A stretch of DNA of 64,000 bases from Naegleria gruberi. Its lineage: Eukaryota. This document shows, piece after piece, positions 36,636 to 52,409 of this stretch; within the stretch, counting starts at the first letter, position 1, and every line of letters starts with the position of its first letter. Both the position numbers and the translations under genes were made by a program. The notes below the pieces were generated by a model, which was not told the DNA's origin, searched no databases, and was given only the letters and a program-made list of their open reading frames with translations. Location: NCBI GenBank assembly GCA_000004985.1, contig GG738882.1; one strand, 5' to 3'.

Positions 36636-38744
36636 TTAATCCTTTTGTTGTAATAGCATATGAGTCAACTTTGATAAATGGTGAGAATCAAGATTCAAGA
36701 AAACGTTTCCTTCTGATGCTCTTTTATGCTCATTGTATCCTTTTGGAAAGAAAAAGTCTTCTGCTGTTGGAGGAACATCTAACAGGACTGAATGCAATTT
36801 TTGATTTCTGACTCCTTCCAAGTGACACGTTCCTAATGGCTTAATAGTACACACTTCTTCCAAGATGGTGGCTGTATTACCATCACAAACAATGGACCCT
36901 TTCAAATGGTCATTGGCATAGTTACAGAATGAAATGGAACGCTTTATCAACTCTCCAAATAGTCCATATTCTCTTCGAAAGTCAGATCCAACACTTCCTC
37001 TAAAACTGTATCCAGTTGCATATCCAATTCCTGTAAATTGTAATTGTTCTCTTTCCACAATTTCTCTCATACATTGAATCACTAGCGATGGATTTTCCTC
37101 AGCAATATGTCTCTCGAAGGTATACACAAACATGACACAATCCTTCTCGTAGAACAAGTCATGGAACGTGGCATTATATTGCTCTATAATTTCTTGTACT
37201 GAGGTTACAATCTTATTCTTAACGGTTAAATCATGTTCTGGAATGCTCGACCCAAATAGAGATGCCTTAATTGAATGTGTACACACCACCAATTCCACAA
37301 CTGAATTCATTGACTCGATTGTTTTAGTTTCAATTCCATAAAGTAAATTCTTATTCAAAAAGAGAAGAATTGCCTGTGAGAAGGAACAATGAAATGTTAT
37401 CGAAGCAAGTGGATGATGATCAATATCTTTAGTAACGTGAGTTACTAAAAAGAGATTCCCTGGTTCCTCACTCGCCACTAAGGATTGTTTACACTTGTTA
37501 TAGGCATCCTTGGTAATGAAGACTAATCCTTCCTTACAATCCTTCAGACGTTTCCTTGTTTGATAAACAACTTGGCCTCCAAACATTCTCATCCAATGAT
37601 TTCCAAAACCACCCAAATGATACGATAAGGAATCTCCAACACCTATCAAACATTTAATTTCCAAAGGTGCACTTTCACTAATACACTTGTAGGTCTTTAA
37701 ATTGGCCAATGATTGAATCCTGAATGCACATTGAATGGCAGAAAGAATTGAATCAGTGAATGAGCGATCCACTCTAGGTGAAAAGAATTGACACACCAAA
37801 AGATCAGCCTCAAATTTCTCAATATCACCCCCCATGTCATGAATGATCGCAATTAACGTAGTGTACATGTAATAAATATATCTGGAAATTTCCGCAACAT
37901 CACAATTTGTTGAACAATCATAGAAAGAGTCCACAACTTTTGAAAATCCCTTCATTTCAATCACCAGGATGCAAGTCTCATTCCCAAATTCACTCAATGG
38001 AAGTACTTGCTTGATCCTATCCTCTTCCTGTTGTGCTGCAGAGACTACTGGTTTTGCAGCTTTTGTCTTATTATTCCTATTACCACCTGAACGGTTGGTT
38101 CTCATCGTGTTGGTTGTTGATGTGGAGAGTCTTCTCTTGAAGATTGAAGCTATTTTCCCATTATTATGTGCATGGGAATCTTGATAGTGAGAAGAGTAGT
38201 CGGTATTTACAGAGACAAAGGCAGACCACTTGCTTTCATTATCTACAAGACAACTTCCATCGTTGTGTGAAAAACTTTGTGGAAGAGGAGTGGCTAGCTT
38301 TTTCTTATATTGCTTCCCCTCACCTCCATAATAAATATATCTCAAACAGAAGAGCAAATGTTGTGGGAGGTAAGAACAACACAATTCCAAATTCACTTCC
38401 TCTTGAGATTTTCCTTGTGGAGTTTGGGGAAAACCAATCCAGCTCACACGAAGGCCAGGAATTCTAAATGATGATACCTTCTTTGCCCTCAGATCCAAAG
38501 TTTCAATTTCAGATGACACAGAATTCTCTCGTGATTGCTTCTTTCCGAATTGAAACCTGGCAGAATTTGCAAGAGAATTATCATTCTGATGATATACATT
38601 TTCCACACCTCCCCTTTGAGAACCGACCATGCCATTACCATTGGTGTTTAAAGTTGTGCTGGTGGTATTGCTCTGATGACGACGATAAGAGCTTGGCTCA
38701 CTGTGTAGTAGTACCTCAAAGTGAGAACTACATCCAGCTCCCAT
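36636..38744 (-). CDS. Soluble-type tandem class III adenylyl/guanylyl-cyclase-homology-domain protein with N-terminal myristoylation/palmitoylation motif (MGAGCSS)
   Basis: Domain 1: CILVIEMKGFSKVV...GGDIEKFEADLLVCQF...IKCLIGVGDSLSYHLGG. Domain 2: ASITFHCSFSQ...YEKDCVMFVY...GIGYATGYSFRGSVGS...GSIVCDG. The order matches the paired CHD arrangement of sAC-like enzymes. An N-terminal Gly2/Cys5 context precedes a long Ser/Asn-rich linker. Confidence 0.5.
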   Translation of the reverse strand: MGAGCSSHFEVLLHSEPSSYRRHQSNTTSTTLNTNGNGMVGSQRGGVENVYHQNDNSLANSARFQFGKKQSRENSVSSEIETLDLRAKKVSSFRIPGLRVSWIGFPQTPQGKSQEEVNLELCCSYLPQHLLFCLRYIYYGGEGKQYKKKLATPLPQSFSHNDGSCLVDNESKWSAFVSVNTDYSSHYQDSHAHNNGKIASIFKRRLSTSTTNTMRTNRSGGNRNNKTKAAKPVVSAAQQEEDRIKQVLPLSEFGNETCILVIEMKGFSKVVDSFYDCSTNCDVAEISRYIYYMYTTLIAIIHDMGGDIEKFEADLLVCQFFSPRVDRSFTDSILSAIQCAFRIQSLANLKTYKCISESAPLEIKCLIGVGDSLSYHLGGFGNHWMRMFGGQVVYQTRKRLKDCKEGLVFITKDAYNKCKQSLVASEEPGNLFLVTHVTKDIDHHPLASITFHCSFSQAILLFLNKNLLYGIETKTIESMNSVVELVVCTHSIKASLFGSSIPEHDLTVKNKIVTSVQEIIEQYNATFHDLFYEKDCVMFVYTFERHIAEENPSLVIQCMREIVEREQLQFTGIGYATGYSFRGSVGSDFRREYGLFGELIKRSISFCNYANDHLKGSIVCDGNTATILEEVCTIKPLGTCHLEGVRNQKLHSVLLDVPPTAEDFFFPKGYNEHKRASEGNVFLNLDSHHLSKLTHMLLQQKD

Positions 38745-44611: not shown

Positions 44612-46801
44612 ATGTCCTTCACCGCTTACTTTAGCTATCAGGCAAATTTACGGCCAGCCTGGAAGACCTACTACATTTCATACCCAGAACTTAAGAATGC
44701 ACTCCATCACATTAGAGAGGAACTCACACAAATGAAACAAGAACAAAAGGAGCATCGGAAACGAAGATTGCAACAACAACAAGAAGAGGAGAGGAAAACC
44801 TCAGAAAATTCTGCCCTATTGTCCTATCAGCAACAGGCTGTAACAAGTGGAGATAGTAATAATAATAATAATACAACAATAGTATCATCGTCATCATCAT
44901 CACTGTTGCCTGCTAATAGCAGTGGTGCATTGAATCCAATTGAAAACTTTGGATTATCACTGCGGAGAGTCTATTCAGAACAAGATTCATCAATTCAGGA
45001 GAATGATGGAGAGAAAATAGGAGGAACCATTGTTGATGATTACTTTTTCAGATTGGAAATTGGAGAAAGTTTGAATATGCATATTGAAAATTTCAAAAAC
45101 ATGTTTAAAAAGGACGTAGAGACTGTTTTTAAAAAGTACAATTTTGAATTGAAGAAAGTCAATGAAATAACATTGAGAACACAAAAGGAATTGTCAGAAG
45201 CAAGAATGAAACCATTTTTCAATAGTGAAACTGGTCCAGTACTGAAAGAGAAATTTGTTGAAATTTACAGAGAGTTGGAATTTCTCTACAGCTTTTTGCA
45301 TGCCAACAGAATTGCTAGTAATAATTTATTGACTAAATTTGAATTTTGTGGTGAACATTCAAGAGATTTAAAACATTGGTATGAAGATTTACCAAATGCT
45401 GACTTTAGCACCAATCAATTGAAACAAAGTATGGAAAATGTCGAACAGATATTTGCCAAATATTTCACATCCTCAGATCAGAGTAGAGCCTTGTCATTCC
45501 TTCGTGAACCTTCCACTCACCACACCCACGGTGACACTTTCAAATTGGCTCTGGCTATTGGTTCCATTGTGCCATTGTTTGTCCTTCTGGTTGCTGTGTG
45601 GTTCTTTAAGGAGCCATCAATTAATGATATTCCAGGTTTCTTTGATGTACTTCCAATTTTCCGTTCTATCATGTTATACATTCTCTATGGTTGGCTCTAT
45701 GGATTGAATTTGTTTGTTTGGGAAAGATACAAGGTCAACTTTGCCTATCTTTTTGAATTTGATCCAGTGAATCACTTGAAAGCTATCAAAATTTGGAAGA
45801 CAACTAGTGTTTTGACAGTTTTTTGGTTCTTTTTCTTTTTCCTTTACATGATAACAGTGAAAGGTTATTTAACAATATTAGATGCTTCATGGTATCCATT
45901 AATTATGAGCTTGATGATGGTCTTTATTGCCATTTTACCAATGCACTTTGTTCACTTGAGTGCAAGATATACTCTCCTTAAGGTCTTGGGTAAATTGTTG
46001 ATCACACCATTTGGTCACATTAGATTCAGAGAATTCTTTGTTGCTGATGTTTTAACAAGTATGGTTATTCCAATAACTGATACAGCTTACATGTTGTGCT
46101 TTTATTTCTCTTGGAGTAGTGGTGAAAATCAATGTCATGAATTTAACAAATTCTTGGGTCCTTGCCTTACTTTCCTTCCTTTCTTGTGGAGAATGTTACA
46201 GTGTTGCAGAAGATTTTACGATGACAGATCACAAAAGAGTCAGCTTCTCAATGCTCTCAAATACGTTGCTGCTCTCTCTGTGATTTTATTCAACACCTTG
46301 CACGTCAATTTGGAAGATAACGATGCTTGGGGACCTTTCAGATATATTTGGATTATTCTGACACCAGTCAGTACTGCCTATGCTTTCACTTGGGATATTC
46401 TGATGGATTGGGGCTTATTCAAATTCAAACAAGTTAAGGAAGAGGAAAGAGCCAAGACGAAATTGGAAGCAATTAAGAAATTTTTCACCTCACAAACAAT
46501 TATGGGCTACAAATTTGTAATGCGTAGCAGAAGAATTTATGGTAGAAGAAAACTTGTCTATCGTTTGGCAATTGCTTTCAATTTGATTGCTAGATTTGCA
46601 TGGGCTGGTACCATCTCAACTTACTTTAAGCAAAATAAGGAATTTTTAGCCATTCTCTTTGGTAGTGTCGAGTTGATGAGAAGATGTAGTTGGAGTGTCT
46701 TTAGATTGGAATGGGCAGCAATCTCTAATGATGAGGGCTGGCGTAAACATGGAATTGGAGACTTGGCATCTATCTATCTTGGTATTAACACTTCAAAATA
46801 A
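44612..46801 (+). CDS. XPR1: SPX-EXS domain phosphate exporter (XPR1/PHO1/SYG1 family)
   Basis: N-terminal SPX (MSFTAYFSYQANLRPAWKTYYISYPELKNALHHI...), about 8 TM helices, and a C-terminal EXS domain (WDILMDWGL..., RFAWAGTIS..., FRLEWAAISND). Confidence 0.8.
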   Translation: MSFTAYFSYQANLRPAWKTYYISYPELKNALHHIREELTQMKQEQKEHRKRRLQQQQEEERKTSENSALLSYQQQAVTSGDSNNNNNTTIVSSSSSSLLPANSSGALNPIENFGLSLRRVYSEQDSSIQENDGEKIGGTIVDDYFFRLEIGESLNMHIENFKNMFKKDVETVFKKYNFELKKVNEITLRTQKELSEARMKPFFNSETGPVLKEKFVEIYRELEFLYSFLHANRIASNNLLTKFEFCGEHSRDLKHWYEDLPNADFSTNQLKQSMENVEQIFAKYFTSSDQSRALSFLREPSTHHTHGDTFKLALAIGSIVPLFVLLVAVWFFKEPSINDIPGFFDVLPIFRSIMLYILYGWLYGLNLFVWERYKVNFAYLFEFDPVNHLKAIKIWKTTSVLTVFWFFFFFLYMITVKGYLTILDASWYPLIMSLMMVFIAILPMHFVHLSARYTLLKVLGKLLITPFGHIRFREFFVADVLTSMVIPITDTAYMLCFYFSWSSGENQCHEFNKFLGPCLTFLPFLWRMLQCCRRFYDDRSQKSQLLNALKYVAALSVILFNTLHVNLEDNDAWGPFRYIWIILTPVSTAYAFTWDILMDWGLFKFKQVKEEERAKTKLEAIKKFFTSQTIMGYKFVMRSRRIYGRRKLVYRLAIAFNLIARFAWAGTISTYFKQNKEFLAILFGSVELMRRCSWSVFRLEWAAISNDEGWRKHGIGDLASIYLGINTSK

Positions 46802-46840
46802 TAAAAATTAATTCAATTATTAAGTTAAATACAGGTAGAT

Positions 46841-49465
46841 TTATAACAAATGTTTAATACGATCTAAAAAGCTCTCTGCAACAGAATCACTTGTCTTTTT
46901 TTCAGTCAGGTACTCTTCCAATACCTGAACTGCTTGTGGGTATTGAGAGGCAAAGAATAGCTCACAAGCTTGATGATACTTTAACCAACGATTTTTCTTT
47001 TCTTTGGCTTCCAATTCATACATCCATTCTATTATTTGATTAAAGATTATATTATTACTAATACTAAAAAATTATTACTTACCATCTGCTGTAACATCAT
47101 TACTTTCTCCCAATTCGTATATTTTTCTTGCGTGATAGGCAACTTGCTGTGTTGAGGCCAAAAGAGGTGATGAATAATAGTCATCCTCAATCATATCCTT
47201 AGTGTCGACATATCTTGCTTGGAATTGATTGTTATTCTTTTCGAATAATTCTTCTGAAATGACAATATCCAAATCGAAACGGTTGGCGATCTCAATCATC
47301 ACTTCAGTATTGTACTGATGACTTCCCAGAACAGAAAAGTTCATCACTTGCTTGGATCCAACATTTCCACACAAATTACTCTGACAATGTGCAACTATTC
47401 TAAACTTGAAATCATTCAATAGAGCTTGATGTGATTTCAAAATTGAATTTTTCGACAACTTTCCTTCCTTAATAGAATTTAACTTGGCAAGAACAATTGA
47501 GCTCATTTGAACACCTTTCAACTGGTGATTTGATTGATCATTAGTTGCATTAAAATGAATGCTAAGTGTTTCATTTTCGAATTTACCAATTTGCCCATTA
47601 TTTGCTCTTGCTATCTGGCCAACACTTTCGAAAATATCACTCAAAATATTAACACATTCATTGGGATTGATGCTGAGCAACCATTGATTCAACCCTTGCA
47701 TGTAAGTATTCACAAAAGTAACTTTCCTTTTCTCCAAATAGAGAGAAAACATATTCCCTGTTGGCTGTTTTCCAAACTTTCCAGATTGACGAAGATCGCT
47801 GTGAGAGCGACTAGATTTACTGTACATGGATTCTTCACGCTTGGAGTTGGACACAGCTGTGGAACTTTCATGATTTTCATTATTCGATTCTTGAGTACTT
47901 TCTTTTTGAGAATTTCCATCCAATTGCATTAACAAGTGAGGTGGAATGAATCTTCTGTAGAGCTTAATTCTTCCAATCATACTCTTAAAGTGAGTTTGAA
48001 GGGATTTAACCTCAGAGAATCGAGTCTTGTAAAGGTGTAGATTTTCAAGTTCCATATTCGAAACCATCTCAAATGCTTGTATGAGGTTATTGAATGGCCT
48101 AACAATTTTGAGAGAGAACAAGATAGCCATACTTATACTAGCCCCAACAATTATAATTGCTCCCAATAGAGCACAAATTATAGCAATAACCATAGAGCCC
48201 ATATAATTCCATTGTGGAACTTTAAACACCAGAATCCTAAAAGTTACAAATCAATATAAATTCTGAAATTCTGTATTGAAAACTTACCAATCAATACCTT
48301 CATTTGTACACAATCTTTGAATGGATATGAAATCAATGAGTGTAGTTAAATCCTGCTTGGTATTACATGCAATTTCATTAAACGTTTTAAATCTATTGTA
48401 AATAATGTTACCCGTCACTGAAATGTCACCACCAAAATCTAGAGCTGTCTTTCGATGAATTACTCCCTGATTATCCCAGGTGGCCACAACAGCATCTGGA
48501 TCATCACTTGCAATAATGAAATCTGTCTTTTTTTCAATTACAAAAGCAGTAGATCCTCTCACTGATTTTGTAATCTCAATCAAAAAATTCGAAACTGTTG
48601 CAACACTCATATCAAAAGCAAAATGGAATGAGAAATTATCTCCTGGTTTGATTGTTCCAACATTTGTAAAACTCGAAACTGTAGTCAAAAAGACGAATTG
48701 TGGCATTGTTGGATCGGCATATGACAGTGTGACAACTGGATTGCCAGGATTAGTCGAAGCAAACTGAGCTACATAGTTTGAGGTGAATGGTGGAATCACA
48801 ACATTCGGCTCAACAGTTCTATTGCAATACTCATTTGAAGCAATATCTCTACATTCCCAAAAATATTGATCCAAACCAAGTGTAGTATTAAAGTATTGAG
48901 CTGAATCACCCAAATTGACCATTCCATAATTAGAACCATCTGGATAACCAATATATACAGCTAGAACCACTTGCCTGAGATAGTTCTTTACAACCTTGAA
49001 CGTTTTATAGGTGTGTCTCTCTAGAGAAATGGGATCCAGATAATTAAAGTCATTGTAAAGTTGAGCTTTGACAGATTCCACAACAAGTAACACATCCTGA
49101 AGTGTTCTCTCAATGAACGAAACAATTTTTGAGAAATCTTCCTCCCTCACTTTTGTACTTTGCTCTGCAATTGAAGAACTAAATGTACTTATCCAAATAA
49201 CTGACAAGACAATAACAGAAATCAACACCAATAAGGAAATCATGAGCATCAAAAGAAATTTGATTGAGGAAAAGAAGGAAGGTTTGGATTCGTCCTTTTC
49301 AAAACTTGATTGACTAGTACTTTCCAATAATTGATTTTGCTCTTCAATGGGATAGGATTTTTCAGGAGAGGAGGTGGGTTTAACTCGTGTCATTGTTTTT
49401 TTTTGTTTCGAATAATAGTAATGTAAGAGAGATTGATATTGTTTGAAATGAATTACAAAATCCAT
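46841..49465 (-). CDS. Receptor-type (extracellular domain + TM + class III cyclase-homology domain + TPR-like tail) nucleotidyl-cyclase-like protein, probably catalytically inactive; exons 49465..48288, 48236..47083, 47028..46841
   Basis: The N-terminal TM and large ectodomain are joined by the phase-2 intron 48237..48287 (GTAAGT...TTTTAG) to a second TM (MGSMVIAIICALLGAIIIVGASISMAILF). After that comes a CHD (VTFVNTYMQGL..., IGKFENETLSIHF, FRIVAHCQSNLCGNVGSKQVMNFSVLGSHQYNTEVMIEIANRF). The phase-1 intron 47029..47082 (GTAAGT...AATAG) joins the tail ...EWMYELEAKEKKNRWLKYHQ. About 839 aa. Confidence 0.55.
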
Positions 49466-50870: not shown

Positions 50871-52409
50871 TTAAATGTCCTTATCATTTTGAACTAGTGT
50901 TCTGAGAGCCATGTCAATAGCACGTTGCTTGTCCTCTTGTGGAAGGAGAGCTACAAAATAGATGAGCTCTCTTAAACCATTAGAGAAATCCTCAAGGGTA
51001 GATACTGGTTGAGTAGATTGAGGTACTGGAACTTGAATGGCTGTATTGGATCCATGAATTTCCTGTAGCCTAGCCCTCTTTTCATCAATTAATCTCTGAA
51101 TCTTTTTCCTCTTTTTGCTTTCGGCTGTTCTTTGTGGCTTCTTCCTTCTAGCAGAGGTAAGAAAAGGAGCTCCCTGTACAATGCAAAATGGTAAATCATC
51201 TTCATAATAATCCTCAGGGAAGTAGTATCTTATTTGAATGGTAAATGCTCGATTTTTGTAGTGAGCCGACACTACATCAATGTTAAATTTTGTTCTATTT
51301 TCCATAATTGAGTTGGGATCTTCTCTCTGTGAGAGTGGCTTCATCAATTCCAATCCTCTAATATCACCGGCAATAACATCCTTAGTGACTCCTCCTTGTT
51401 TTTCTGGAATTAAATTTGCAGGAACTGGTATTTGATTCATTTCTACAACCTGAACTATTTTTTGAACTTCCTCTCCAGTATCACGGAATGCCAATTTAAT
51501 ATCAGCAATAATCTTTTCGTAATTTCTCCTAATTTTCTCATGGAATAGTACTGTTTGATGAAATTGGTAAACAAGAGATGTGTACAAATTTTCTGGAATG
51601 TAAGGAGTTGGATCATCACTTCTAGTTTGCAAGACATATGAATAATCAATTATTGGAGATTCTGATCCAATTAACTCGATGAGTTTTTGATTTTTGGCCA
51701 TGAGTGAAAATATTGTCTCATTGATAAATGAATTCTCTTCGTGTGAAATTTCAATTGGTGCAGAGCTGGATCCAAAATTATTCGAAGAAGTATAGAGAGT
51801 AGATGTATTTGTTGGATAACAAATCTGCCATTCTCTCAAATCCACATTTTCCTCATCCTCCTCATCTTCCATCTCCTCATCATCCTCTGTAGTGTCACTT
51901 TCGTCCATTTCCGATGAAGAATCTTCATCCGAAGACGAAATCACACCTTCGGAACGATTTGCCATCATTGATCCATTATAACTAGCACTATCATTAATCA
52001 TACTACTGCTACCCATACGACTATGCATTGCTGATGATCCTACCCCCAGCCTATTTTCCAAATTCTCTTCATCAAGCCTAAAATAAATATTATTAAAATT
52101 TGGCTGACGACGATGTTGATGATGATTTTTCTGAATACTCGCATAACTACTACTCTGTGATTCGTCATCATCCTCCATACTAATCATTCTATTATCGATA
52201 GGATTGATAAATGGATAACCCGAACCATAAGAAGAAGAATTAATTCTTGTTGTATTAGCACTCATTGATGATGAAGTGTTGGTTCGTTCCAAAATATTAA
52301 TTCCATCACGAATCATACCACTGATCATTTTAGCTTCATCTTCCGAAGATTCCGATGTCTCATCTAAAAGTGCAGCGTCATATTCATCGTCAGACGATGA
52401 CGAACTCAT
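50871..52409 (-). CDS. Hypothetical protein with an acidic/Ser-rich N-terminal half and a structured C-terminal domain
   Basis: 512-aa uninterrupted ORF with start context aaaaaaATG. Acidic tracts (DEEMEDEEDEEN). The C-terminal 250 aa are complex and non-repetitive (…FHQTVLFHEKIRRNYEKIIADIKLAFRDTGEEVQKIVQ…YFPEDYYEDDLPFCIVQG…) and then basic KKRKK. Confidence 0.5.
   Translation of the reverse strand: MSSSSSDDEYDAALLDETSESSEDEAKMISGMIRDGINILERTNTSSSMSANTTRINSSSYGSGYPFINPIDNRMISMEDDDESQSSSYASIQKNHHQHRRQPNFNNIYFRLDEENLENRLGVGSSAMHSRMGSSSMINDSASYNGSMMANRSEGVISSSDEDSSSEMDESDTTEDDEEMEDEEDEENVDLREWQICYPTNTSTLYTSSNNFGSSSAPIEISHEENSFINETIFSLMAKNQKLIELIGSESPIIDYSYVLQTRSDDPTPYIPENLYTSLVYQFHQTVLFHEKIRRNYEKIIADIKLAFRDTGEEVQKIVQVVEMNQIPVPANLIPEKQGGVTKDVIAGDIRGLELMKPLSQREDPNSIMENRTKFNIDVVSAHYKNRAFTIQIRYYFPEDYYEDDLPFCIVQGAPFLTSARRKKPQRTAESKKRKKIQRLIDEKRARLQEIHGSNTAIQVPVPQSTQPVSTLEDFSNGLRELIYFVALLPQEDKQRAIDMALRTLVQNDKDI

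What the first reader, a model, noticed from the sequence alone, without database searches (positions are those of the whole stretch)
46841..49465. Three-exon receptor-type cyclase in which both metal-binding Asp are replaced (pseudo-cyclase); convergent on XPR1 with a 39-nt gap
The ectodomain and two TMs precede a CHD reading VTFVNTYM (D to N) and IGKFENETL (GD to FE). The catalytic metal ligands are therefore lost while the fold motifs remain (FRIVAHCQSNLCGNVG...YNTEVMIEIANRF). Together with the sAC-like gene 8 kb away, this suggests a regulatory pseudo-cyclase, possibly a heterodimer partner or sensor. Its stop lies 39 nt from the XPR1 stop on the other strand.
Basis: partly seen in the sequence, partly recalled or inferred. 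Interest (0 to 1): 0.55.

Follow-up and report, generated by a model that had tools for sequence, protein, structure and literature searches.

The report
Naegleria Cache–HAMP receptor with dead cyclase domain
This is a real three-exon Naegleria gruberi gene for a membrane receptor built like a bacterial sensor adenylate cyclase, but its cyclase domain lacks the residues needed to make cAMP, and the same loss runs through a large family of related protist genes.

Summary
Window 46841–49393 (minus strand) encodes an 815-aa protein in three exons with 51- and 54-nt GT–AG introns. It is N. gruberi NAEGRDRAFT_50751, annotated only as "predicted protein".

Architecture: TM1, a dCache-like ectodomain, TM2, HAMP, a short 'FIPxHLL' motif that I read from memory as a cyclase-transducer element, a Ser/Asn-rich linker, a class III cyclase-homology domain (CHD), then a TPR-like tail with a DEWMYEL motif.

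The CHD call is solid: family profile against CyaB gives E=4e-17, and all top 50 Foldseek hits are class III cyclases.

On an alignment checked against four canonical CHDs:
- Asp2 is Glu591, so GD→NE, not FE
- the transition-state Asn and Arg positions are Tyr677 and Val681

Among 95 relatives from Naegleria, Percolomonas, a diplonemid and metagenomes, none has acidic residues at both metal positions. HAMP and the GNxG(T/S) arm stay nearly invariant.

Best reading: a conserved receptor pseudo-cyclase that signals without making cAMP. The XPR1 neighbour, the 39-nt gap and the sAC-like gene 8 kb away are all real. Nothing links the sAC-like gene functionally. The Cache–HAMP–cyclase architecture in Discoba is already published; the family-wide catalytic loss appears undescribed.

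The parts
46841..49393 (-). Whole coding region (815 aa; 3 exons) of N. gruberi NAEGRDRAFT_50751. An in-frame upstream ATG at 49465 would add 24 aa.
   Evidence: Identical to XP_002674792.1 (P0166) apart from the intron-1 acceptor.
48288..49393 (-). Exon 1: N-terminal cytosolic stub, TM1, ectodomain
48237..48287 (-). Intron 1, 51 nt, GTAAGT...TTTTAG, phase 2 (splits the Trp369 codon)
   Evidence: Paralogues read EGIDWI..VPQWNY across the junction. The GenBank model instead uses a downstream AG and deletes 46 aa, including TM2.
47083..48236 (-). Exon 2: TM2, HAMP, FIPxHLL (CTE-like) motif, linker, cyclase-homology domain
47029..47082 (-). Intron 2, 54 nt, GTAAGT...AATAG, phase 1
   Evidence: The DEWMYEL motif spanning the junction is conserved in the family.
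46841..47028 (-). Exon 3: (D)EWMYEL motif and TPR-like helical tail; stop codon 46841-46843
49190..49258 (-). TM1 (aa 46-68)
   Evidence: Kyte-Doolittle scan
48288..49189 (-). Ectodomain (aa 69-369), dCache-like. It has four Cys, three of them invariant in the five-sequence alignment, and an invariant N-x-T sequon (N169/T171).
   Evidence: hhalign against a Pfam-verified dCache_1-HAMP protein: prob 99%, E=5e-18. Foldseek top hits are dCache chemoreceptor domains, though the model is poor at pLDDT 51. Weak profile hits to 7k5n and 6mni. No Pfam hit.
48110..48199 (-). TM2 (aa 382-411)
47963..48115 (-). HAMP domain (aa 410-460). Pro416 and Glu444 are invariant in 26 relatives.
   Evidence: The hhalign alignment covers the Pfam HAMP of P0174, residues 364-414. 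Invariant columns. Weak NarQ hit.
47918..47971 (-). 'LYRxFIPxHLL' helix (aa 458-475), which resembles the cyclase-transducer element. Pro467 and His469 are invariant.
   Evidence: The resemblance to the CTE rests on my own knowledge and was not tested.
47753..47917 (-). Ser/Thr/Asn/Gln-rich low-complexity linker (aa 476-530; 49% S+T+N+Q) inserted between the FIPxHLL motif and CHD strand beta1
   Evidence: A linker of this kind is visible in the aligned and listed relatives.
47102..47752 (-). Degenerate class III cyclase-homology domain (aa 531-747)
   Evidence: Profile vs PDB: CyaB 3.7e-17, Cya2 2.9e-15, CyaC 2e-10. AF2 pLDDT 74, and all top 50 Foldseek hits are class III cyclases. A canonical-CHD HMM hits this ORF at E=5.6e-8.
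47702..47704 (-). Tyr547 codon at the position of metal-binding Asp1
47570..47572 (-). Glu591 codon at the position of metal-binding Asp2, preceded by Asn590 in place of Gly
47297..47314 (-). Helix alpha4 segment Y677-N678-T-E-V681-M682. The canonical Asn and Arg fall on Tyr677 and Val681 (ungapped alignment), or on Asn678 and Met682 (one-residue gap). No Arg in either register.
46802..46840 (.). 39-nt spacer between the two convergent stop codons
44612..46801 (+). Convergent neighbour: single-exon SPX-EXS (XPR1-like) gene
   Evidence: Pfam EXS 6e-82, SPX 5e-8

Best explanation
The gene encodes a two-pass membrane receptor of bacterial type. It has an extracellular double-Cache ligand-binding domain, a cytoplasmic HAMP domain and a short 'FIPxHLL' helix, then a class III (IIIb-like) cyclase-homology domain and a TPR-like tail.

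The cyclase-homology domain has lost the two-metal catalytic machinery. Asp1 is Tyr. The transition-state Asn and Arg positions are Tyr and Val. Only a Glu remains at Asp2.

The protein therefore most likely does not make cAMP or cGMP. It most likely acts as a ligand-gated signalling or scaffolding pseudo-enzyme. In this picture, ligand binding at the Cache pocket is relayed through TM2 and HAMP to a CHD-like dimer, and the conformation of that dimer is read by other proteins. The readout could involve the strongly conserved DEWMYEL/TPR-like tail and the Ser-rich linker. It may also involve non-productive pairing with active cyclase paralogues.

What is shown: the gene model, the topology, the identity of the domains, the loss of catalytic residues, and family-wide conservation of that loss. 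What is inferred: lack of enzymatic activity, dimerisation, the direction of signalling, and the nature of the output.
For: 1. Gene model and topology. Three in-frame exons with canonical splice sites, supported by paralogues. Exactly two TM segments. The ectodomain carries conserved Cys and an invariant N-x-T sequon.

2. dCache and HAMP. hhalign of the 26-sequence family profile against a cyanobacterial protein whose dCache_1 and HAMP pass Pfam thresholds gives prob 99%, E=5e-18 over 366 columns. The ectodomain model's top Foldseek hits are almost all dCache chemoreceptor sensor domains.

3. CHD. Profile vs PDB gives CyaB 3.7e-17, Cya2 2.9e-15, CyaC 2e-10 and OaPAC 2e-9. The AF2 model (pLDDT 74, pTM 0.72) has only class III cyclases among its top 50 Foldseek hits, E~1e-10.

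4. Catalytic residues. Independent alignments to CyaB, Cya2 and CyaC and to four canonical CHDs used as positive controls agree. Asp1 maps to Tyr547, Asp2 to Glu591, Asn to Tyr677 (Asn678 at +1) and Arg to Val681 (Met682 at +1).

5. The loss is a family trait. In 95 aligned relatives the Asp1 column holds D once and E three times, otherwise K/Y/R/H/L and others. None has acidic residues at both metal positions. The Arg column never holds Arg in one register and holds it in 9 of 95 in the other.

6. Other positions are under strong constraint: GNxG(T/S) ~97%, N598 and H606 88%, and HAMP Pro/Glu and 'IPxH' invariant in 26 sequences. Reading frames are intact in at least six N. gruberi paralogues and in N. 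fowleri, N. lovaniensis, Percolomonas and a diplonemid. The representative search gave 131 clusters at E<=1e-30.

7. The tail is collinear with the TPR-like tail of a canonical bacterial CHD protein.
Against: - No biochemical data exist. Loss of activity is inferred from residue identity alone.
- An acidic residue (Glu591) sits exactly at Asp2, and a second Glu (E589) lies two residues before it.
- The purine-side Lys587, Ser670 (at the Thr/Asp position), the beta4 Arg and the GNxG loop are retained in this protein. Nucleotide binding, or an unconventional low-level activity, is therefore not excluded.
- The strongly conserved HAMP and FIPxHLL module is what one expects upstream of a regulated enzyme.
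- The ectodomain structural model is poor (pLDDT 51).
- No output partner is known. No expression data were available.
- The family census covers only the best 150 of 4093 hits, so catalytically intact relatives with the same tail may exist further down the list.
Confidence: 0.6

Rival explanations
1. It is still an enzyme, but an unconventional nucleotide cyclase or other nucleotidyl transferase. The two Glu of the beta2-beta3 hairpin (E589-N-E591) would replace the canonical Asp pair, and other residues would stabilise the transition state.
For: - Glu591 lies exactly at Asp2, and E589 is E or D in 54 of 95 relatives.
- Lys587, Ser670, the beta4 Arg and GNxG are retained.
- Asn678 is conserved in the Naegleria clade, one residue from the canonical Asn.
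- The regulatory HAMP module is intact.
Against: - The Asp1 position is Tyr here, and is never paired with an acidic Asp2 position in 95 relatives.
- The Asp2 column itself is variable (D 36, E 10, N 10, S 10, G 8 and others), as are the Asn and Arg columns. No alternative catalytic constellation is conserved across the family.
- From my own knowledge of Rv1625c and mammalian AC mutagenesis, single substitutions of Asp1 or the Arg essentially abolish activity.
Confidence: 0.2
2. It is the non-catalytic half of a heterodimeric cyclase, as with mammalian C1/C2 or sGC alpha/beta. It would pair with a catalytically complementary CHD, possibly the sAC-like protein encoded 8 kb away, to build one active site.
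For: - The dimer-arm motif GNxG(T/S)..K.F(S/T)..G is nearly invariant.
- Naegleria species carry many cyclase genes; a pangenome study reports at least 81 (PMC9928731).
- A tandem-CHD sAC-like gene lies at 36636-38744.
- From my own knowledge, Rv1625c point mutants can complement each other in heterodimers.
Against: - The domain lacks both the 'C1-type' residues (Asp1) and the 'C2-type' residues (Asn, Arg). It cannot contribute a complete half-site of either kind. Pairing with an active CHD would more likely be inhibitory.
- The sAC-like neighbour is itself non-canonical: C1 has Asp1→Glu, and in C2 the Asn and Arg positions are Lys and Ser. It already contains its own two CHDs.
- Four unrelated genes separate the two loci.
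Confidence: 0.12
3. It is a decaying pseudogene, or an artefact of gene modelling, and the missing Asp residues reflect degeneration or a wrong exon structure.
For: - Pfam's Guanylate_cyc model does not hit the protein.
- The deposited GenBank model differs from mine at intron 1.
Against: - The 2448-nt CDS is uninterrupted with canonical splice sites.
- Every segment is collinear with paralogues and orthologues in three Naegleria species and beyond.
- The non-canonical residues are shared by the family.
- The fragment of a near-identical sequence held in ENA differs by 2 aa in 393.
Confidence: 0.03

Closest known systems
Bacterial class IIIb adenylate/guanylate cyclase catalytic domains (P. 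aeruginosa CyaB 3R5G, Synechocystis Cya2 2W01, Spirulina CyaC 1WC0, OaPAC/bPAC)
   Same: - Same fold and collinear sequence (E=3.7e-17 to 2e-9; Foldseek TM up to 0.75 on the target).
- Shared GN(I/F)G(S/A) arm.
- Ser/Thr at the purine-specifying position, and Lys four residues before the hairpin acid.
- A TPR-like C-terminal tail, as in a cyanobacterial CHD protein.
   Different: - Asp1 is Tyr.
- The hairpin is NE, not GD.
- The canonical Asn and Arg of helix alpha4 are absent.
- A ~55-aa low-complexity linker is inserted before beta1.
- It falls below Pfam PF00211 detection.
Cache-HAMP receptor-type class III cyclases: bacterial examples such as M. tuberculosis Rv2435c (PMC4822843), and the 'pan-eukaryotic' TM+HAMP+cache1 NCIII subfamily described for Euglena and N. 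gruberi (PMC6366073)
   Same: Same overall architecture: TM, dCache, TM, HAMP, single CHD. Homology to a bacterial dCache_1-HAMP module is demonstrated.
   Different: - The published descriptions that I read treat these proteins as cyclases and do not comment on catalytic residues.
- This branch uniformly lacks those residues.
- Its ectodomain escapes the Pfam dCache models. One paper counted only a single Cache protein in Naegleria (PMC4822843).
Degenerate halves of pseudo-heterodimeric cyclases (mammalian tmAC C1/C2, sGC alpha/beta, soluble AC C1/C2)
   Same: A CHD fold is kept while part of the catalytic set is lost. Function would depend on dimerisation.
   Different: Those halves each keep one complementary subset of residues and together form one active site. 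This domain lacks members of both subsets and is a single-CHD protein, which would be expected to homodimerise.
Trypanosomatid receptor adenylate cyclases (ESAG4/GRESAG4) and Dictyostelium ACG
   Same: Protist membrane receptors with an extracellular sensor and one intracellular class III CHD.
   Different: From my own knowledge, those have canonical catalytic residues and measured activity, and different ectodomains (periplasmic-binding-protein-like, CHASE). Here the ectodomain is dCache and the catalytic residues are missing.

Membership tests
Class III nucleotidyl cyclase homology domain (CHD superfamily) | CHD fold and significant sequence-profile similarity to solved class III cyclases | tested here: met
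   Family profile vs PDB: CyaB 3.7e-17, Cya2 2.9e-15. The top 50 Foldseek hits are all class III cyclases.
Class III nucleotidyl cyclase homology domain (CHD superfamily) | Passes the Pfam PF00211 (Guanylate_cyc) gathering score | tested here: not met
   No hit at E<=1 for the window protein. Only sub-threshold hits (15-17 bits against a cut-off of 21.9) for N. fowleri and N. lovaniensis relatives.
Catalytically competent class III cyclase | Two metal-binding Asp (end of beta1; beta2-beta3 'GD' hairpin) | tested here: not met
   Tyr547 and Asn590-Glu591 occupy those positions. None of 95 relatives is acidic at both.
Catalytically competent class III cyclase | Transition-state Asn and Arg in helix alpha4 (N-x-x-x-R) | tested here: not met
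   Tyr677 and Val681 in the ungapped alignment. Asn678 and Met682 with a one-residue gap. No Arg in either register.
Catalytically competent class III cyclase | Substrate-specifying pair (Lys plus Asp/Thr for ATP; Glu plus Cys for GTP) | tested here: inconclusive
   Lys587 and Ser670 are present in this protein. The Lys column is not conserved in the family (S 26, N 14, K 8 of 95).
Catalytically competent class III cyclase | Measured cAMP or cGMP synthesis | not testable with these tools
   Needs an enzyme assay.
dCache_1 extracellular sensor domain | Homology to a verified dCache_1 domain, or a double PAS-like fold with a long N-terminal helix | tested here: met
   hhalign prob 99%, E=5e-18 against a protein whose dCache_1 passes the Pfam cut-off. 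The Foldseek top hits are TlpA, Tlp3, TlpC, PctD and similar (low-confidence model). Secondary-structure order is consistent.
dCache_1 extracellular sensor domain | Pfam PF02743 hit | tested here: not met
   No Cache-family hit at E<=1 for the window protein, nor at E<=10 for five relatives.
HAMP domain | ~50-aa two-helix unit directly after TM2, with a conserved Pro in AS1 and Glu at the start of AS2 | tested here: met
   The hhalign alignment covers the Pfam HAMP of P0174, residues 364-414. Pro416 and Glu444 are invariant in 26 sequences. There is no direct Pfam hit.
Pseudo-enzyme (pseudo-cyclase) | Enzyme fold retained, catalytic residues lost, and the loss conserved under selection across orthologues and paralogues | tested here: met
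   fold; residues; a family of intact genes sharing the loss, with other motifs ~90-100% conserved.
Pseudo-enzyme (pseudo-cyclase) | Demonstrated absence of catalytic activity | not testable with these tools
   Needs biochemistry.
Heterodimer partner of the neighbouring sAC-like protein | Complementary half-site residues and physical interaction | tested here: not met
   The complementarity half was tested. The protein lacks both C1-type and C2-type residues, and the sAC-like ORF already has tandem CHDs. Physical interaction is not testable here.
Trypanosome-type or ACG-type receptor cyclases | PBP-like or CHASE ectodomain with a canonical CHD | tested here: not met
   The ectodomain matches dCache, not PBP or CHASE. 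The CHD is non-canonical.

The most novel reading that the evidence does not exclude
In a Discoba-wide family (Heterolobosea and Euglenozoa, plus unassigned metagenomic sequences) of dCache-HAMP receptors, a bacterial-type cyclase domain has been converted into a non-catalytic output module. It could be a nucleotide-sensing or protein-recruiting switch read through the invariant DEWMYEL/TPR tail. That would make it a eukaryotic chemoreceptor class whose downstream pathway is unknown. A more radical variant is that the E-x-E hairpin supports a GGDEF-like or otherwise new nucleotidyl-transfer chemistry.
Probability: 0.2. Interest if true: 0.7.

Novelty: new variant of a known kind. Interest (0 to 1): 0.45.

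Why it matters
Naegleria species carry many 'adenylate/guanylate cyclases' (at least 81 in a pangenome study, PMC9928731). These counts are used to argue for an unusually rich cAMP-based sensory system. If a sizeable, conserved branch of Cache–HAMP receptors cannot make cyclic nucleotides, the counts overstate cAMP signalling capacity.

It would also mean a separate receptor class with an unknown output exists in Naegleria (including the pathogen N. fowleri), Percolomonas, diplonemids and uncultured protists.

The family would be a natural system for asking what a cyclase-homology dimer can do besides catalysis. It also extends the Cache repertoire in eukaryotes beyond what Pfam models detect.

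For annotation, the deposited model of this gene appears to delete the second transmembrane helix.

Tried and rejected
- Pfam on the full protein gave no informative hit, so domain identities had to come from profile and fold methods.
- Single-sequence phmmer vs PDB was only marginal (E=0.02).
- The ectodomain profile of five sequences found nothing in PDB.
- The word-indexed homologue search badly under-reported the family, giving 4, 2 and 9 hits. The exhaustive representative search found 4093.
- Exact-sequence look-ups of the window's XPR1 and exon-1 ORFs found nothing. The organism and locus tag came from cluster membership instead.
- The ectodomain AF2 model is poor (pLDDT 51). I used its Foldseek hits only as corroboration.
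- My first translation of the sAC-like ORF was out of frame and was redone.
- I looked for paralogues of this family elsewhere in the window and found none. A canonical-CHD HMM finds only this gene and the sAC-like ORF.
- I considered that the conserved Asn678 is the catalytic Asn displaced by a one-residue insertion. The better-supported ungapped alignments put it at +1. I report both registers.
- The literature search for 'pseudocyclase' or 'pseudo-cyclase' returned nothing relevant.
- I rejected the trypanosome/ACG-type receptor, the pseudogene reading and the C2-like heterodimer half, for the reasons given under rival explanations.
Full report
**Where the window comes from**

The window is AT-rich (GC ~34%) with short GT–AG introns. 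The gene in question is, residue for residue, N. gruberi NAEGRDRAFT_50751 (XP_002674792.1, 'predicted protein', 769 aa). The only difference concerns one splice acceptor, discussed below. The window therefore appears to be Naegleria gruberi NEG-M nuclear DNA.

**Checking the observation**

On the minus strand, three ORFs (49465..48284, 48229..47075, 47023..46841) join in frame. The joins use two introns with GTAAGT donors and AG acceptors, 51 nt (48287..48237) and 54 nt (47082..47029).

Paralogues read continuously across both junctions: '...EGIDWI(I/L)..VPQWNY...' and '...DEWMYEL...'. The model is therefore supported independently of splice-site consensus.

Paralogues begin MTRITP, MAQVTP and MTKVQP, and the GenBank model begins MTRVKP. 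The likely start is therefore the second Met at 49393, giving 815 aa.

The GenBank model uses an AG 138 nt further downstream for intron 1. This removes 46 aa, including the second hydrophobic segment. Four of the five aligned relatives keep that segment; the fifth, P0002, is a truncated model. Without the segment the HAMP and cyclase-like domains would be extracellular. I consider the short intron correct.

The convergent neighbour at 44612..46801 is an SPX–EXS (XPR1-type) protein (Pfam EXS 6e-82, SPX 5e-8). The two stop codons are separated by exactly 39 nt, 46802–46840.

The 'sAC-like gene 8 kb away' is the 702-aa ORF at 36636..38744 (−). Pfam finds nothing in it. phmmer matches human soluble adenylyl cyclase ADCY10 in two stretches, C1 and C2, at E=7e-7.

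**What the protein is**

A hydropathy scan finds exactly two transmembrane segments, aa 46–68 and 382–411.

*Ectodomain.* The ~300-aa segment between the two TMs has four Cys, three of them invariant in the five-sequence alignment. It also has an N-x-T sequon that is invariant there. Both fit an extracellular location.

Pfam does not recognise this segment, and a five-sequence profile finds nothing in PDB. Three other lines agree on a double-Cache domain:
- The AF2 model is poor (pLDDT 51), but it has the dCache order of secondary structure.
- Its best Foldseek hits are almost exclusively dCache chemoreceptor sensor domains: TlpA, Tlp3, TlpC, PctD, TlpQ and Htc10.
- A 26-sequence family profile gives weak hits to two Cache structures (7k5n at 0.004, 6mni at 0.011).

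The decisive result is hhalign of that profile against a cyanobacterial sensor protein. Over 366 columns it gives 99% probability and E=5e-18. The alignment runs from the start of the periplasmic domain through TM2 to the end of HAMP. In that protein, Pfam places dCache_1 and HAMP at exactly those positions, above its thresholds.

*HAMP and the motif after it.* The HAMP Pro416 and Glu444, and Pro467 and His469 of the following 'LYRxFIPxHLL' helix, are invariant in the 26-sequence alignment. From memory, that helix resembles the cyclase-transducer element of class IIIa/b cyclases. I did not test this.

*Linker.* A 55-aa stretch follows with 49% Ser/Thr/Asn/Gln. It is visible in the relatives I aligned and listed. 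To my knowledge it is unusual, because in canonical cyclases that helix leads almost directly into strand β1.

*Cyclase-homology domain.* Single-sequence evidence was marginal (E=0.02), but profiles are unambiguous:
- The five-sequence profile gives 1e-6.
- The 26-sequence profile gives CyaB 3.7e-17, Cya2 2.9e-15, CyaC 2e-10, OaPAC 2e-9, and mammalian AC5/AC9 ~3e-5.
- An AF2 model of aa 527–815 (pLDDT 74, pTM 0.72) returns only class III cyclases among its top 50 Foldseek hits, at E~1e-10.
- An HMM built from four canonical bacterial CHDs finds this exon at 5.6e-8.

*C-terminal tail.* The last 65 residues form three confident helices. They align collinearly with the TPR-like tail that follows the CHD of the cyanobacterial protein (hhalign E=2.6e-5, prob 75%).

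The whole protein is thus a bacterial-type Cache–HAMP receptor cyclase homologue. This architecture has already been noted for Euglena and N. gruberi (PMC6366073) and for bacteria (PMC4822843).

**The catalytic residues**

Alignments to CyaB, Cya2 and CyaC, and a control in which four Pfam-positive CHDs were aligned to the family HMM, give one consistent mapping:

| Canonical residue | Canonical context | Residue in this protein |
|---|---|---|
| Metal Asp1 | (F/L)(S/A)D(I/V)xGF | Tyr547 (VNT-Y-MQGL) |
| Metal Asp2 | hairpin 'GD' | Asn590-Glu591 |
| Purine-side Lys | four residues before the hairpin acid | Lys587 (retained) |
| Thr/Asp position | purine-specifying | Ser670 |
| Transition-state Asn | helix α4 | Tyr677 ungapped; Asn678 with a one-residue gap |
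| Transition-state Arg | helix α4 | Val681 ungapped; Met682 with a one-residue gap |

The second replacement is the conservative D→E. Two further catalytic residues are also missing.

**A family trait, not an accident**

The exhaustive representative search found 4093 proteins at E≤1e-3 and 131 at E≤1e-30. The word-indexed searches had returned only a handful.

Named members include at least six N. gruberi paralogues and several from N. fowleri and N. lovaniensis. There is a Percolomonas transcript and a diplonemid (Namystynia) transcript. Many metagenomic sequences also belong, some carrying N-terminal ankyrin repeats.

I aligned 95 members whose match spans nearly the whole domain model:
- The Asp1 column holds Asp once and Glu three times. 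Otherwise it holds K, Y, R, H, L and others.
- The Asp2 column is variable (D 36, E 10, N 10, S 10, G 8 and others).
- No member is acidic at both metal positions.
- The Arg position is never Arg in one register and is Arg in 9 of 95 in the other.

In contrast, other motifs are strongly conserved:
- GNxG(T/S) is ~97% conserved.
- The FN(A/T/S) Asn and the following His are 88% conserved.
- Lys/Arg before the F(S/T)xxG arm is 96% conserved.
- The HAMP motifs are invariant in the 26-sequence alignment.
- Trp755 of the DEWMYEL motif is nearly invariant.

This pattern of fold and interface motifs kept, with catalytic positions free to vary, is what defines a pseudo-enzyme family. It also argues against a decaying gene.

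**How it most likely works**

*Shown:* topology, domain identities, loss of the catalytic set, and conservation of the loss.

*Inferred:* a small ligand binds the membrane-distal Cache pocket. The R-x-W-Y amino-acid-sensor motif that I recall from bacterial dCache domains is not evident here, so the ligand is unknown. The signal passes through TM2 and HAMP. The CHD-like domain dimerises through the conserved arm but cannot carry out two-metal catalysis. The output is then a conformational or protein-interaction event. It probably involves the invariant DEWMYEL/TPR-like tail, and perhaps phosphorylation of the Ser-rich linker.

I put about 0.6 on 'non-catalytic receptor'. I put about 0.2 on residual or unconventional catalysis; Glu589, Glu591, Lys587, Ser670 and the β4 Arg leave nucleotide binding plausible. 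I put about 0.12 on an obligatory heterodimer role.

- This domain lacks both the C1-type and the C2-type residues.
- The sAC-like ORF already carries two CHDs of its own, themselves non-canonical. Its C1 has Asp1→Glu, and in its C2 the Asn and Arg positions are Lys and Ser.
- Four unrelated genes lie between the two loci.

**Comparison with what is known, and novelty**

The gene is already deposited as a hypothetical protein. Some orthologues carry UniRef's automatic label 'Guanylate cyclase domain-containing protein'. The Cache–HAMP–cyclase architecture in Discoba is published (PMC6366073).

I could not find a description of two things. One is that this large branch uniformly lacks the catalytic residues. 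The other is that it carries the linker and DEWMYEL tail as hallmarks. A search for 'pseudocyclase' returned nothing relevant. My literature coverage is limited.

I therefore rate it a new variant of a known kind, of moderate interest (0.45). It matters for how cyclase counts in Naegleria are interpreted (PMC9928731). It also points to a eukaryotic chemoreceptor family with an unknown output. Everything about function remains inference until an enzyme assay is done.

The 39-nt convergent gap is real but unremarkable in this compact genome. Other gaps between long ORFs in the 30–64 kb part of the window that I listed are mostly ~110–360 nt. It implies overlapping or very short 3' UTRs.

Noticed in passing
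window 36636-38744 (-): A 702-aa single-exon ORF with tandem cyclase-homology domains resembling mammalian soluble adenylyl cyclase (ADCY10; E=7e-7, two stretches). Pfam does not detect it. It is itself non-canonical: C1 has Glu for metal Asp1 (Asp2 is kept, as 'AD'), and in C2 the Asn and Arg positions are Lys and Ser. It may be a second, unrelated pseudo-cyclase or atypical cyclase in the same 64 kb.
   Followed up: partly
window 48098-48287 (-); GenBank XP_002674792.1 (P0166): The deposited N. gruberi gene model uses an AG inside the Arg415 codon as the intron-1 acceptor. This deletes 46 aa (ILVFKVPQWNY...SLKIVR), including TM2. Paralogues keep this segment, so the deposited model is probably wrong.
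   Followed up: yes
P0002 (N. gruberi NAEGRDRAFT_73198, 567 aa): This paralogue's deposited model jumps from TM2 straight into the middle of the CHD and ends at 'DEWM'. It lacks HAMP, the linker, the first third of the CHD and the tail. This is probably another mis-modelled gene.
   Followed up: no
P0059, P0065, P0068, P0073, P0081, P0084 and others (metagenomic, ~1150-1300 aa): A distant branch of the same family carries ~390-530 aa of N-terminal cytosolic ankyrin repeats ahead of TM1. JGI labels some 'ankyrin repeat protein/class 3 adenylate cyclase'. In this branch the Asp1 position is often Lys, Arg or Glu, and a conserved acidic residue sits three positions later ('F-P-D-F').
   Followed up: partly
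window 48288-49189 (-) and family ectodomains: The dCache-like ectodomain of this multi-paralogue family is invisible to Pfam dCache models. The published statement that Naegleria has Cache in a single protein (PMC4822843) is therefore likely an undercount.
   Followed up: partly
window 46802-46840: Only 39 nt separate the convergent stop codons of XPR1 and this gene, so the 3' UTRs must overlap or be extremely short. Other convergent ORF pairs listed in the 30-64 kb part of the window are ~160-180 nt apart.
   Followed up: no
window 30064-62133: Gene context is ordinary eukaryotic housekeeping and signalling: a PACS-1-like protein, a class II aminoacyl-tRNA synthetase (D/K/N type), an F-box/LRR protein, an ankyrin-repeat protein, a beta-CASP metallo-beta-lactamase, an FNIP-like protein and a Myb protein. 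A 512-aa acidic ORF at 50871-52409 has no Pfam hit.
   Followed up: no
P0019 (ENA, 393 aa): A prokaryote-style ORF call equal to exon 1 of this gene exists in an ENA assembly, with 2 aa differences. This suggests a second, near-identical N. gruberi strain or contaminant reads in a public dataset.
   Followed up: no
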